Positions 9,574 through 24,988 of a stretch of 39,568 bases of DNA are shown here, one piece after another. Location of the stretch: assembly GCA_031549065.1 (NCBI GenBank), contig JAVBQM010000073.1, forward strand, positions 1 to 39,568, given 5' to 3'. How positions within the stretch are numbered: the first letter of the stretch is position 1; every line of letters starts with the position of its first letter. The translations under genes and the position numbers were made by a program. The DNA is from Candidatus Gastranaerophilales bacterium (GTDB lineage Bacteria; Cyanobacteriota; Vampirovibrionia; Gastranaerophilales; Gastranaerophilaceae). Below the pieces are notes generated by a model. It was given only the letters and a program-made list of their open reading frames with translations, was not told the origin of the DNA and searched no databases.

Positions 9574-9924
9574 ATGTCCTCCTTCAACATTAACGGCCCA
9601 CAAAATAAGCCCATGATTCAAGAATCGCAGAATATGAAAAACAACGGCGGCGGCGGAAACCTGGGGTATTTTCCGCGCGGTAAGAAGAAAAAGGACGATA
9701 AAACAGATGAAGAAATAAACGATTATTTCATCAAAGAAACCGACAACGAAGAAAAAGAAGACGGCAAGGGCAAAAAAGAAGGTCTTTTCGAAAAACTGAA
9801 AAGCAAAATCAAAGAAAAAGTTGAAGATATAGCAGAAACAACATCACAGGCAAGTAAAAAAGAAACACCGGCGCCCAAAAAAGACGGGTTTTTAAGTTTA
9901 TCTAAGAACGTTGAAAATACATAA
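9574..9924 (+). CDS. Hypothetical Lys/Glu-rich low-complexity protein
   Basis: 116-aa ORF preceded by a TATAAT-containing promoter-like stretch. Highly charged, with no recognisable domain. Confidence 0.4.
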   Translation: MSSFNINGPQNKPMIQESQNMKNNGGGGNLGYFPRGKKKKDDKTDEEINDYFIKETDNEEKEDGKGKKEGLFEKLKSKIKEKVEDIAETTSQASKKETPAPKKDGFLSLSKNVENT

Positions 9925-11664: not shown

Positions 11665-11925
11665 ATGTTAGTTTTAACAAGAAAAGTAAACGAAAAATTG
11701 ATTATCAATGGCAATATTGAAGTTGTTGTGCTTGATGTTACGAAAAATTCCGTACGGATTGGTGTAAAAGCGCCGAGTGATGTGCAAATTTACCGTGAGG
11801 AAATTTATCGGGAAATTCAAAAGGCTAATAACCTTGCTGTGAGCGCAAACCCTGAAGATATTGGCAAAATTGGGGTCGGGAGCGCGAAAAAATTTGACTT
11901 GATCTCGAAATTGAAAAATGATTAG
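11665..11925 (+). CDS. csrA: Carbon storage regulator CsrA (FliW-partnered type with C-terminal extension)
   Basis: MLVLTRKVNEKLIINGNIEVVVLDVTKNSVRIGVKAPSDVQIYREEIY is a canonical CsrA fold sequence. At 86 aa it has an extended C-terminus. Confidence 0.92.
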   Translation: MLVLTRKVNEKLIINGNIEVVVLDVTKNSVRIGVKAPSDVQIYREEIYREIQKANNLAVSANPEDIGKIGVGSAKKFDLISKLKND

Positions 11926-24407: not shown

Positions 24408-24569
24408 ATTGTAAATATAAAAACTCCTTGCGGGAGTAATAATTCCCCAAATAATGTTAAGCTATGTTAACAAAAATTTAAAAAATATATACAAAGTAGT
24501 CAATTTTTTGCAGGGAATATTCTTTATATATATAAGGGAGAGATAACCACCGTATAAAGGAGAAAGAAG

Positions 24570-24758
24570 ATGGCCAGAGTACTTATTTCAATGCCTGAGA
24601 AATTTCTAGATGAGATTGATCACGTTGCAGACAACGAGAATCGTTCACGTTCGGAACTTATCAGAGAAGCTTTGAGAAGCTACATCCACAGAAACAAAGC
24701 GCGTGAAAATTCATTCGCAACCAAAAATGCAACAATCTTGGAAGCTTTGCTAGATTAA
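24570..24758 (+). CDS. Ribbon-helix-helix (CopG/Arc/MetJ superfamily) DNA-binding protein, orphan
   Basis: 62 aa. The RVLISMPEKFLDEIDHVADNENRSRSELIREALRSYI pattern (beta strand, then two helices) is typical of the RHH fold. Strong SD AAAGGAGAAAGAAG. No partner toxin-like ORF follows. Confidence 0.75.
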   Translation: MARVLISMPEKFLDEIDHVADNENRSRSELIREALRSYIHRNKARENSFATKNATILEALLD

Positions 24759-24764
24759 TTAAAG

Positions 24765-24960
24765 GCTACTGAGACCGGGAGTTAAGAGAGGATTTGTCAG
24801 GGGTGCCTGACATTAAAAAACACGAGACACAAGAGAGTAAAACCTAGCAATAGTACCTGAGAGACACTATTGCGACAGACACACAATGAGAGAGAACACT
24901 TCGACAGTTGAGAGCGTCGGGGTACACGAGAAAAAGCGAGAGAAACGAGCTTTAAATGTG
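24765..24960 (+). ncRNA. Candidate structured 3'UTR or sRNA: U-poor, GAGA-motif-rich RNA
   Basis: At least 10 non-overlapping GAGA cores lie on the + strand between 24771 and 24943. There is a 7-bp hairpin (24795-24812) and an 8-bp hairpin (24847-24873) whose 11-nt loop is ACCUGAGAGAC. A strong terminator follows. No credible ORF is present. Confidence 0.35.
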
Positions 24961-24961
24961 C

Positions 24962-24988
24962 AAGGGTGGCATGTCCACCCTTTTTATT
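24962..24988 (+). terminator. Rho-independent terminator
   Basis: GGGTGG (24964-24969), loop CATGT, CCACCC (24975-24980), then TTTTT-ATT. The T-run is on the + strand. The site lies 4 nt from the convergent argF stop. Confidence 0.75.

What the first reader, a model, noticed from the sequence alone, without database searches (positions are those of the whole stretch)
24570..24988. Orphan RHH gene followed by a terminated, U-poor RNA packed with GAGA motifs
A segment of about 190 nt lies between the RHH gene's stop (24758) and a strong + strand intrinsic terminator (24962-24988). It has no credible ORF and a very skewed composition, being A/G/C-rich and T-poor.

I count at least 10 non-overlapping GAGA cores on the + strand, starting at 24771, 24786, 24824, 24833, 24859, 24888, 24892, 24910, 24928 and 24938. 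A rough hand estimate from base composition predicts fewer than one. They recur in extended forms:
- UGAGAG x3
- CGAGA x3
- AAGAGAG x2
- ACACGAGA x2

The motifs often alternate with ACAC. At least one core sits in the 11-nt loop of a clean 8-bp hairpin (stem 24847-24854 / 24866-73, loop ACCUGAGAGAC). Another sits in a weaker 4-bp hairpin (24902-24919).

The gene's own leader also carries GGGAGAGA (24536-24543), and its SD is AGGAGAAAGAAG. Repeated short purine motifs displayed in loops are the hallmark of protein-sponge RNAs such as CsrB and RsmZ, where the motif is GGA. A CsrA gene lies in this window, but the motif here is GAGA rather than GGA. The binding partner, if any, is therefore unknown.
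Basis: partly seen in the sequence, partly recalled or inferred. Interest (0 to 1): 0.62.

Follow-up and report, generated by a model that had tools for sequence, protein, structure and literature searches.

The report
Structured GAGAG-displaying 3'UTR of RHH gene
The stretch after this small regulator gene is a real, conserved, folded RNA tail that holds out about ten copies of the short motif GAGAG, most likely as landing sites for a still unknown RNA-binding factor. It matches no described RNA family.

Summary
The cluster (13 overlapping GAGA in 203 nt) is unique in the window.

The organism is a termite-gut member of the Gastranaerophilales (non-photosynthetic Melainabacteria). The RHH gene is a very conserved, free-standing, single-gene unit with no toxin partner and no conserved neighbours.

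Nine relatives from the same clade carry a homologous 3'UTR of about 200-230 nt. An unbiased consensus fold gives four hairpins plus the terminator:
- 93.7% of cells are paired, against 34-52% in slid controls.
- 23 of 36 pairs show compensatory double changes.
- Stems differ between species, but loops keep (A/G)G(G/U)UGAGAGC.
- GAGA cores are predicted unpaired and are better conserved than the linkers.

Across the order, GAGAG and ACACGAG(G/A) motifs pile up only on the + strand in this gene's 5' or 3' UTR.

There is no Rfam match. The motif is not CsrA's GGA, and this order's flagellin leader uses canonical GGA sites.

Best reading: a multivalent RNA platform for a GAGAG-reading factor, acting on the RHH mRNA and possibly as a sponge. 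The partner is unknown.

The parts
24485..24536 (+). Conserved promoter block of the RHH gene: ATATATACAAAGTAGTCAATTTTTT, a spacer, then CTTTATATATATAAG
   Evidence: The same block (ATATATAC(A/T)AA(A/T)AGTCAATTTTT ... CTTTATATA(A/T)GTAC) lies upstream of the RHH gene in nearly all related loci. The -10-like box was found in 148 of 149 distinct loci. Promoter function is inferred.
24536..24569 (+). Presumed 5'UTR, with GGGAGAGA (24536-24543) near the transcript start and the SD AAGGAGAA
   Evidence: Across 81 loci, GAGAG occurs 32 times in the 100 nt before the start codon on the + strand, against about 3 per 100-nt bin in the background. ACGAGAG lies just after the -10 box in 22 of 149 loci. 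The transcription start site is not mapped.
24570..24758 (+). Orphan ribbon-helix-helix (CopG-type) gene, 62 aa
   Evidence: PF01402, E 4.8e-10. More than 2400 homologue clusters were found; the 120 listed are 81-94% identical and 98-100% covered. All 165 related loci encode exactly 62 aa. The closest solved structure is B. subtilis EndoAI, 4me7, E 6.7e-7.
24759..24961 (+). Structured 3'UTR: 203 nt, 13 GAGA, 16.7% U
   Evidence: It is homologous to the 3'UTRs of nine relatives (L085, L171-174, L176, L081, L165, L083).
24764..24783 (+). Hairpin P1 (GGCU.CU / GG.AGUU) with loop GAGACC, which holds the first GAGA
   Evidence: This is helix 1 of the RNAalifold consensus on 10 sequences. 93.3% of cells are paired, and 2 of 6 pairs show double changes. 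It is the weakest of the helices.
24795..24812 (+). Hairpin HP0 (UGUCAG / CUGACA), loop GGGUGC
   Evidence: This is helix 2. Four pairs show double changes. In L174 and L083 the hairpin at this position carries a GGUGAGAGC loop.
24847..24873 (+). Hairpin HP1: 8-bp stem, loop ACCUGAGAGAC
   Evidence: The hairpin model R1 scores it 27.3 bits, E 3e-6. It is helix 3, with 100% of cells paired and 5 of 8 pairs showing double changes.
24898..24923 (+). Hairpin HP2: 8-bp stem with two U.G pairs, loop AGUUGAGAGC
   Evidence: The hairpin model R1 scores it 32.3 bits, E 6e-8. It is helix 4, with 92.9% of cells paired and 6 of 7 pairs showing double changes. The G.U pairs fit the + strand RNA only.
24933..24953 (+). 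Hairpin HP3 (AAAGC / GCUUU), loop GAGAGAAACGA
   Evidence: It appears in the single-sequence fold. The sequence is conserved in most relatives but without covariation, so the fold is not proven. A rival long-range pairing with AAGGCU at 24762-24767 was predicted from 4 sequences only.
24816..24841 (+). Single-stranded linker AAACACGAGACACAAGAGAGUAAAAC with two motif copies
   Evidence: The A(A/C)GAGAGUAAA block and ACACGAGA are conserved in the 10-sequence alignment. They are predicted unpaired.
24884..24897 (+). Linker AAUGAGAGAGAACA
   Evidence: the core is kept while the flanks change (UGAGAGAGAA in the window, CGAGAGAGAA in L085).
24924..24932 (+). Linker ACACGAGAA
   Evidence: ACACGAGAAA is almost invariant in the 10-sequence alignment.
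24962..24988 (+). Intrinsic terminator
   Evidence: It is helix 5, with 96% of cells paired and 6 of 8 pairs showing double changes.

Best explanation
The segment is the folded 3'UTR of the mRNA of a conserved, free-standing RHH regulator in a termite-gut clade of the Gastranaerophilales.

**Shown.**
- It forms four hairpins (P1, HP0, HP1, HP2), probably a fifth (HP3), and then an intrinsic terminator.
- The stems change by compensatory substitutions between species.
- The hairpin loops ((A/G)G(G/U)UGAGAGC) and the A/C-rich linkers (ACACGAGA, AAGAGAGUAAA, GAGAGAGAA) keep about ten unpaired GAGAG-type motifs.

**Inferred.**
- These motifs are binding sites for one trans-acting factor that reads single-stranded GAGAG. 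This is most likely an RNA-binding protein: possibly the RHH protein itself, possibly an Hfq-like (AG)n reader or an unknown protein.
- A further GAGAG copy often lies at the very 5' end of the same mRNA, and the SD is GGAGA. The factor would therefore control the translation or stability of the RHH mRNA in cis.
- With about ten sites per molecule, the transcript could also titrate the factor as a sponge.
- It is not a CsrA sponge.
For: **Motif cluster.** It is real and unique in the window.

**Conservation in ten sequences**.
- The RNAalifold consensus was computed on a plain MAFFT alignment. It has 36 pairs, 23 of them with double changes.
- 93.7% of cells are paired, against 34-52% when partners are slid.
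- No shuffle out of 500 reaches the observed number of pairs or cells with double changes, or the covariation score.
- For the ten UGAGAG hairpins, 96% of cells are paired and all 8 pairs show double changes.
- G.U pairs in the stems fit only the + strand RNA.

**Motif display and selection.**
- GAGA cores are predicted unpaired: P(paired) is 0.16-0.23, against 0.44-0.59 for other positions, in all five RNAs folded.
- Cores are better conserved than the rest: 98% against 84% (window vs L085) and 95% against 70% (window vs L081).

**Pattern across the order.**
- GAGAG is enriched on the + strand only, in the RHH 5'UTR (32 hits) and 3'UTR (36 + 11 hits), against about 3 per bin in the background.
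- 20 of the 28 + strand ACACGAG hits lie in or just before the 3'UTR.
- Clusters of 5 or more GAGA per 150 nt lie on the RHH transcript in about 30 of 81 loci. Only six lie elsewhere in about 400 kb (five + strand, one - strand). Most of these are in coding or SD sequence (L058 is unclear), and none resembles the RHH UTR platform.
- Some clades carry the motifs in a long 5'UTR instead (L003, L012, L013).

**Not coding, not a known family.**
- Indels between relatives are not multiples of three, and there is no tandem array.
- No Rfam family matches the window or the relatives.

**Precedent for an (AG)n reader.** B. subtilis Hfq binds (AG)3A on its distal face (PMC3287200).
Against: - No binding partner is identified.
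- No transcript data cover the 3'UTR. The RNA runs gave only short contigs of relatives' coding sequence.
- The hairpin form is restricted to one clade. The hairpin model finds no other instance in 166 loci scanned or in the window, apart from one likely chance hit inside a flagellin coding sequence.
- Many relatives have a 3'UTR of only 17-50 nt.
- Motif identity drifts between lineages: GAGAG, ACACGAGGAA, GACUAAUAGRGAAA / UUUGGGGAAA, GGAAAA. This is unexpected for a partner of fixed specificity. It would also fit a looser requirement for purine-rich, U-poor, unstructured RNA.
There is no hfq in the window.
Confidence: 0.45

Rival explanations
1. Cis-acting stability or insulation module with no specific partner. 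A U-poor, purine-rich tail with hairpins protects a very short mRNA from AU-directed endonucleases and 3' exonucleases, or spaces it from the convergent neighbour.
For: - Long RHH 3'UTRs across the order are all purine-rich (55-78%) and U-poor (4-30%, against 31.5% overall), whatever the motif.
- Motif identity varies between lineages.
- The downstream gene is convergent in 50 of 78 loci.
Against: - GAGA cores are more conserved than the linkers.
- The loops are conserved while the stems vary.
- Many relatives manage with a 17-50 nt 3'UTR.
- The same motif recurs at the 5' end of the mRNA.
Confidence: 0.2
2. Base-pairing sponge or target. The purine motifs pair with a pyrimidine-rich (CUCUC) small RNA, or with antisense read-through from the convergent argF gene.
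For: - The motifs are unpaired and repeated.
- The argF stop (24993) lies next to a terminator that is poor on the - strand. HP1 also scores as a - strand terminator-like site.
Against: - There is no CUCUC-rich element on either strand of the window: at most 3 GAGA per 203 nt on the - strand.
- The downstream gene differs among clade members, yet the RNA is kept. In L165 the next gene is a + strand carboxyltransferase. In L081 the next gene is about 560 nt away. In L085 the convergent gene ends about 150 nt beyond the terminator.
- G.U pairs show that the + strand fold is what is selected.
Confidence: 0.08
3. DNA-level array of operator sites for the RHH protein, like the heptad arrays bound by the omega or ParG RHH proteins. 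The sites would flank its own gene.
For: - RHH proteins commonly bind short repeated DNA sites and autoregulate (general knowledge).
- ACGAGAG overlaps the presumed transcription start in many loci.
- The motif is tied to this gene alone.
Against: - The motifs are confined between promoter and terminator on one strand.
- Hairpin stems covary, including G.U pairs, with the motif centred in the loops.
- Motif spacing is irregular: 15, 38, 9, 26, 29, 22, 18, 10 nt.
- The N-terminal half of the protein, MARVLISMPE, which includes the strand that RHH proteins usually use to contact DNA, is almost invariant. The UTR motifs change between lineages.
Confidence: 0.07
4. CsrA-sequestering RNA of the CsrB/RsmZ kind, acting on the fliW-csrA system in this window.
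For: - A csrA gene lies at 11665-11925.
- The architecture matches: many short purine motifs in loops and linkers.
- In other lineages the RHH 3'UTR motif is ACACGAGGAA or GGGGAAA, which do contain GGA.
- An mRNA that titrates a FliW-type CsrA is known: C. jejuni flaA (PMC4894983).
Against: - The window's 3'UTR has only 2 GGA against 13 GAGA.
- The window's CsrA is canonical.
- A flagellin leader from this order has ordinary GCAGGAAU, ACAGGAAU and ACAAGGAAC sites.
- There is no match to any Csr/Rsm family in Rfam.
Confidence: 0.05
5. Neutral low-complexity expansion by slippage or duplication, with no function.
For: - Some relatives look like recent local duplications. L006 has four ACGAGAGAGAAAC units and L162 has four AACACGAGGAA units.
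- Length and presence vary widely.
Against: - There is no tandem array in the window.
- Compensatory changes occur in four hairpins across ten sequences.
- Cores are conserved above linkers.
- The pattern is specific to one strand and one transcript across an order.
Confidence: 0.05

Closest known systems
CsrB / RsmZ / RsmY (CsrA-sequestering small RNAs)
   Same: Several hairpins and single-stranded linkers each display the same short purine motif. An intrinsic terminator follows. The sequence evolves fast while the motif is retained.
   Different: - The motif is GAGAG / UGAGAGC, not A(N)GGA.
- It is not a stand-alone gene but the 3'UTR of a protein-coding mRNA.
- There is no Rfam match.
- The lineage uses the FliW type of CsrA control.
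C. jejuni flaA mRNA, a dual-function mRNA that titrates CsrA (PMC4894983)
   Same: A protein-coding mRNA whose untranslated part doubles as a binding sink for an RNA-binding regulator, in an organism without known sponge small RNAs.
   Different: - There the sites are GGA motifs in the 5'UTR and the partner is known.
- Here there are about ten GAGAG sites, mostly in the 3'UTR, and the partner is unknown.
(AG)3A aptamer bound by the distal face of B. subtilis Hfq (PMC3287200), and Hfq sponges such as CrcZ (the latter from my own knowledge)
   Same: Short runs of alternating A and G in unpaired RNA, repeated along the molecule. AGAGAG, GAGAGA and GAGAGAGA occur in the window.
   Different: - It could not be checked whether this genome has an Hfq.
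- Most runs are only 2-3.5 AG units and sit in a fixed context (ACGAGAG, UGAGAGC). That context is not known to be needed for Hfq.
3'UTR-derived regulatory RNAs of enterobacteria (for example CpxQ, SroC; from my own knowledge)
   Same: A terminated 3' end of an mRNA that carries conserved structure and could be released by processing.
   Different: - Those act by base pairing with Hfq through one seed region.
- Here there is no seed-like unique region, only a repeated motif. Processing is not shown.
Type III toxin-antitoxin RNA (ToxI)
   Same: A repetitive non-coding RNA next to a small gene.
   Different: - ToxI is a perfect tandem array followed by its toxin gene.
- Here there is no tandem array and no downstream partner gene.

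Membership tests
CsrB/RsmZ-type CsrA sponge RNA | Many A(N)GGA / GGA motifs in loops and linkers | tested here: not met
   There are 2 GGA against 13 GAGA in 24759-24961. The loops read UGAGAG.
CsrB/RsmZ-type CsrA sponge RNA | Match to a Csr/Rsm covariance model | tested here: not met
   Rfam 15 scans at gathering and at E up to 10 on the window, and at E up to 1 on six relatives, gave no such hit.
CsrB/RsmZ-type CsrA sponge RNA | Independent small-RNA gene with its own promoter | tested here: inconclusive
   The consensus scan found no promoter-like site between 24759 and 24961. A U-poor strand can hardly hold a -10 box. No 5'-end data are available.
CsrB/RsmZ-type CsrA sponge RNA | Binds and sequesters CsrA | not testable with these tools
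   This needs EMSA or co-immunoprecipitation.
Multi-hairpin, motif-displaying RNA (works like a sponge or platform) | Conserved secondary structure supported by covariation | tested here: met
   93.7% of cells paired; 23 pairs with double changes against 2-6 in slid controls and 9.0 +/- 2.1 in shuffles.
Multi-hairpin, motif-displaying RNA (works like a sponge or platform) | Repeated motif kept unpaired and conserved above background | tested here: met
Multi-hairpin, motif-displaying RNA (works like a sponge or platform) | Accumulates as RNA in the cell | tested here: inconclusive
   The RNA runs held only low-depth contigs of relatives' coding sequence. One contig runs on into ..AAAGGCUACUGAGA...
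RHH_1 / CopG family (the protein) | Match to PF01402 above the curated cut-off | tested here: met
   39.5 bits against a cut-off of 20.5.
Type II toxin-antitoxin antitoxin (VapB / MazE-EndoAI type RHH) | Adjacent, co-transcribed toxin gene | tested here: not met
   A terminator follows the gene in most of the related loci scanned (68 of 81; 128 of about 150 distinct loci). The 135 flanking ORFs fall into 147 Pfam families, none recurrent beyond GcvH in 9.
Hfq distal-face (AG)n ligand | Unpaired runs of three or more AG units | tested here: met
   AGAGAG and GAGAGAGA occur at 24785-24790, 24832-24837, 24860-24864 and 24888-24895. They are predicted unpaired.
Hfq distal-face (AG)n ligand | An hfq gene in the genome | not testable with these tools
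tblastn found none in the window or in the loci held.
Type III TA antitoxin RNA (ToxI-like) | Tandem direct repeats followed by a toxin gene | tested here: not met
   TRF found no array at score 30 or above. There is no downstream co-directional gene.

The most novel reading that the evidence does not exclude
A small DNA-binding regulator would then also bind single-stranded motifs on its own mRNA, so that its UTRs feed back on its translation and buffer the free protein. This would be the first RNA-binding RHH, and a transcription factor titrated by its own transcript.

This reading explains why, across a whole order and in ever-changing neighbourhoods, motif pile-ups occur only on this one mRNA, sometimes in the 5'UTR and sometimes in the 3'UTR.

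A still more remote reading, about 3%, is that ACGAGAG / AGKUGAGAGC mimic the GAGA loop of the 23S sarcin-ricin loop and act as decoys for a loop-cutting toxin.
Probability: 0.12. Interest if true: 0.85.

Novelty: new variant of a known kind. Interest (0 to 1): 0.6.

Why it matters
Regulatory RNAs of the non-photosynthetic cyanobacterial relatives that live in animal guts (Melainabacteria) appear to be largely undescribed. Full-text searches pairing the group's names with 'small RNA', 'RNA-binding' or 'Hfq' found nothing relevant.

This locus gives a covariation-supported, unnamed RNA structure with a clear, testable feature: about ten displayed GAGAG sites. It is tied to one of the most conserved small regulators of the order.

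If a protein reads these sites, it defines a new RNA-protein pair, comparable in logic to CsrA and CsrB but with a different code. The RNA could serve directly as bait to find that protein.

Tried and rejected
- **Rfam.** Only sub-threshold chance hits turned up: nrdJ RNA at 16.3 bits against a gathering score of 40.3, and STnc390 on the terminator.
- **CsrA sponge.** The motif lacks GGA, CsrA is canonical, and the order's flagellin leader has normal GGA sites.
- **Toxin-antitoxin pair.** There is no partner gene and no conserved neighbour.
- **Tandem repeat or microsatellite.** None was found.
- **Small protein in the 3'UTR.** The ATG at 24886 is not conserved (GGC in L085), and indels are not in threes. 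U-poor RNA lacks stop codons, which explains spurious ORF calls in relatives.
- **HP1 as the terminator of convergent argF.** The hairpin is kept where the neighbour differs.
- **SD-like 'ribosome landing' motifs.** Only two GGAG/GAGG sites lie in the window's 3'UTR. GAGAG pairs with at most 3 nt of the anti-SD (read from the sequence).
- **tRNA 3'-end pairing by GGUGAGAGC loops.** GGU is not conserved; the window has CCU and GUU.
- **Other GAGA clusters in 540 kb of related loci.** Most lie in coding or SD regions, and none resembles the RHH UTR platform.
- **Hairpin model elsewhere.** The only extra hit lies inside a flagellin coding sequence.
- **RNA-seq.** Two run searches for the window and one for L085 were made, and two read layings. 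None covers the 3'UTR.
- **Hfq.** There is none in the window or in the loci held. A literature search for Hfq in Melainabacteria was empty.
Full report
**Observation**

The 62-aa ORF at 24570-24758 is a CopG-type ribbon-helix-helix protein (PF01402, E 4.8e-10). A + strand intrinsic terminator lies at 24962-24988.

How much this exceeds chance:
- The window-wide rate gives about 0.4 per 203 nt.
- The region's own base composition gives 2.0.
- Dinucleotide-preserving shuffles give 4.4 +/- 1.4. Two of 5000 reach 10, and none reach 13 overlapping.
- Outside this locus, almost no 203-nt window on the + strand holds more than 4 GAGA, and none on the - strand holds more than 3.
- The stretch is in the lowest 0.9% of windows for T. 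It is not the most purine-rich stretch in the window; that is a K/E-rich coding region at 9574-9924, which has no GAGA cluster.

There is no tandem array. No promoter-like site lies inside the segment. Rfam gives no match at gathering or at E up to 10.

**Organism and gene**

Homologues of the protein carry names such as Candidatus Gastranaerophilales, Gastranaerophilaceae and 'ex Termes propinquus'. The best DNA run holding the window is an invertebrate gut metagenome.

The protein is strikingly conserved. More than 2400 clusters were found; the 120 listed are 81-94% identical over essentially the full length. All 165 loci collected encode exactly 62 aa.

The gene is a free-standing unit:
- A conserved promoter block precedes it.
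- A terminator follows it in most loci.
- The 135 flanking ORFs of 80 species-representative genomes fall into 147 Pfam families, the commonest (GcvH) in only 9.

There is no toxin partner, so 'orphan' is right. The closest solved relative is the RHH antitoxin EndoAI of B. subtilis (E 6.7e-7). Sub-threshold NCBIfam hits include NikR and the archaeal cell-cycle RHH regulators aCcr1 and CdrS.

**The 3'UTR is a conserved, folded RNA in one clade**

The closest relatives of the gene (90-95% identical protein, mostly from termite-gut data sets) carry a homologous 3'UTR of 200-230 nt with 9-15 GAGA. They are L085, L171, L172, L173, L174, L176, L081, L165 and L083.

A plain MAFFT alignment of the ten sequences was folded with RNAalifold. 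It gives five helices:
- P1 (24764-24783)
- HP0 (24795-12)
- HP1 (24847-73)
- HP2 (24898-24923)
- the terminator

The pair counts support the fold:
- Of 36 pairs, 23 keep pairing through changes on both sides.
- 93.7% of cells are paired, against 34-52% when the 3' partners are slid by 1-3 columns.
- Pairs with double changes number 23, against 2-6 in slid controls and 9.0 +/- 2.1 in shuffles (0 of 500 reach 23).

Ten hairpins with a UGAGAG loop, taken from five of these genomes, have entirely different stems but the same loop, (A/G)G(G/U)UGAGAGC. In them 96% of cells pair and all eight pairs show double changes. I picked these hairpins by eye, so the unbiased 10-sequence consensus is the stronger test.

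G.U pairs occur in several stems. On the other strand they would be C.A mismatches, so the selected fold is that of the + strand RNA, the RHH transcript.

A fifth hairpin, HP3 (24933-24953, loop GAGAGAAACGA), is conserved in sequence but shows no covariation.

**The motifs are displayed and conserved**

In all five RNAs folded, GAGA cores have a mean pairing probability of 0.16-0.23, against 0.44-0.59 for other positions.

In pairwise alignments the cores are 98% identical against 84% for the rest (window vs L085). For window vs L081 the figures are 95% against 70%. Repeated motifs help anchor such alignments, so this contrast is somewhat inflated.

Motif variants interconvert while the core stays. 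AAGAGAG in the window is ACGAGAG in L085, and UGAGAGAGAA is CGAGAGAGAA.

In the window, four cores sit in hairpin loops (P1, HP1, HP2, HP3). The others sit in A/C-rich linkers: UUAAGAGAGG, ACACGAGAC, AAGAGAGUAAA, UGAGAGAGAA and ACACGAGAA.

The segment is not coding. The one ATG (24886) is not conserved, and indels are of 1, 2 or 8 nt. U-poor RNA simply lacks stop codons, which explains spurious gene calls in relatives.

**The wider family**

Outside this clade the 3'UTR is not alignable. Its length runs from 17 to more than 300 nt. Even so, a pattern holds across 81 loci:
- GAGAG is enriched only on the + strand, and only in the 100 nt before the start codon (32 hits) and the 200 nt after the stop (36 + 11 hits). 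The background is about 3 per 100-nt bin.
- 20 of the 28 + strand ACACGAG hits lie in or just before the 3'UTR.
- Clusters of five or more GAGA per 150 nt lie on the RHH transcript in about 30 loci. Only six lie elsewhere; most are coding or SD sequence and none resembles the RHH UTR platform.
- One clade (L003, L012, L013) carries 7-9 copies in a 160-170 nt 5'UTR instead.
- Many loci start the transcript with (GU)ACGAGAG right after the -10 box (22 of 149).

Long 3'UTRs (90 nt or more; 51 of 128 loci) are all purine-rich and U-poor. They are built from lineage-specific repeats: AACACGAG(G/A)AA, GACUAAUAGRGAAA / GAUUUGGGGAAA, GGAAAA and AAGCGA.

The hairpin covariance model finds nothing beyond its ten training hairpins in the window and 166 loci, except one hit inside a flagellin coding sequence.

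So the order shares a tendency to load this one mRNA with purine motifs. The termite clade has turned this into a defined, folded RNA.

**Mechanism**

*Shown:* a conserved + strand RNA fold that presents about ten unpaired GAGAG-type motifs, physically joined to the RHH mRNA.

*Inferred:* the motifs are binding sites for one trans-acting reader of single-stranded GAGAG. A copy often lies at the mRNA's 5' end and the SD is GGAGA.

Candidate readers:
- **The RHH protein itself.** This is attractive because the pile-ups occur only on this mRNA, wherever the gene sits. There is no precedent for an RNA-binding RHH that I can cite. The almost invariant N-terminal half of the protein, which includes the DNA-contacting strand of RHH proteins, also contrasts with the drifting motif.
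- **An Hfq-like protein.** B. subtilis Hfq binds (AG)3A on its distal face (PMC3287200). None is present in the window.
- **An unknown protein.**

CsrA is unlikely:
- The 3'UTR has only two GGA.
- The window's CsrA is canonical.
- In L127, a flagellin gene next to an RHH gene has a leader with ordinary GCAGGAAU, ACAGGAAU and UACAAGGAAC sites before its SD.

Rival readings and my odds for each are listed separately: a partner-less stability module, a base-pairing sponge, a DNA operator array, a CsrA sponge and neutral expansion. The covariation argues most strongly against the last two DNA-level or neutral readings.

**Transcript data**

The window's DNA is in one metagenome run. The RNA runs of that study, and two termite-gut and one chicken-gut metatranscriptome, contain only short low-depth contigs of relatives' RHH coding sequence.

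One of those contigs continues past the stop codon into ..UCCAAAGGCUACUGAGAACUU. This shows that relatives are transcribed. It says nothing about a discrete 3' RNA.

**Comparison and novelty**

In how it is built, the RNA resembles CsrB/RsmZ. In being part of an mRNA, it resembles the CsrA-titrating flaA mRNA of C. jejuni (PMC4894983).

It is not a member of those families: the defining GGA motif and the covariance models were tested and not met. It matches no Rfam family.

I rate it a new variant of a known kind: a multi-hairpin, motif-displaying RNA with a new motif and an unknown partner, in a phylum where regulatory RNAs seem to be largely unstudied.

It is very likely a real, selected RNA structure (about 0.85). 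It is moderately likely a binding platform (0.45). That it acts as a true sponge in trans is unproven.

Noticed in passing
window 24454-24536; all related loci upstream of the RHH gene: The promoter region is conserved across the order: a TTAAG-N4-6-TGTAACA-like element, then ATATATAC(A/T)AA(A/T)AGTCAATTTTT, about 20 nt, then CTTTATATA(A/T)GTAC. TAGTCAA read on the other strand is TTGACTA, which the scan scores as a - strand -35 box.
   Followed up: partly
L026 and L028, just after the -10 box; window-clade hairpin loops: The start of the RHH mRNA reads AGUACGAGAGGA in L026 and L028. This is identical over 12 nt to the core of the 23S sarcin-ricin loop as I recall it. GUACGAGAG occurs in 14 of 149 loci. 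The loops AG(G/U)UGAGAGC have a similar AG..GAGAG.C layout. This is probably coincidence. Toxins that cut that loop exist (VapC20, PMC5175351).
   Followed up: partly
L127:629-760 (- strand): A flagellin gene lies divergent from the RHH gene. Its leader has a sigma-28-like -10 (GCCGTCAT) and three canonical CsrA-type sites (GCAGGAAU, ACAGGAAU, UACAAGGAAC) before the SD AUAGGAG.
   Followed up: partly
L114, about 30-150 nt after the RHH stop codon: Right after the terminator there are three AATGAGG heptamers and then about twelve CCTCATT heptamers on the same strand. Together they form a long inverted array of 7-nt repeats.
   Followed up: no
L029, L030, L093-L095, RHH 3'UTR: A GC-rich element of about 110 nt (AAGCG(T/C)AAGCCGGAGTGA ... 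GGATAATCGAGCGCATTGGCGCGAGATACCCACAGGAGC) is inserted one to three times in the 3'UTR. It looks like a small mobile or repeated element.
   Followed up: no
L012/L036/L060; L004/L076; L037/L077; L089/L123: Several assemblies hold two or three RHH genes on different contigs (77-89% identical to the query), each with its own UTR type. They are either true paralogues or mixed bins.
   Followed up: no
window 9574-9924 (+): The most purine-rich, T-poor 203 nt of the window lie in a 116-aa K/E/D-rich ORF with a Gly run (NNGGGGN) near its N-terminus. No family was assigned here.
   Followed up: no
window 24747-24756 and 24841-24850: The last codons of the RHH gene (UUGCUAGAUU) are 90% complementary to AACCUAGCAA, just before hairpin HP1. 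The conservation of this pairing was not checked.
   Followed up: no
L174:985-1194, L084:1432-1662: Gene callers placed 69- and 76-aa ORFs inside the U-poor 3'UTR of relatives. These are almost certainly artefacts of a sequence that lacks stop codons.
   Followed up: partly
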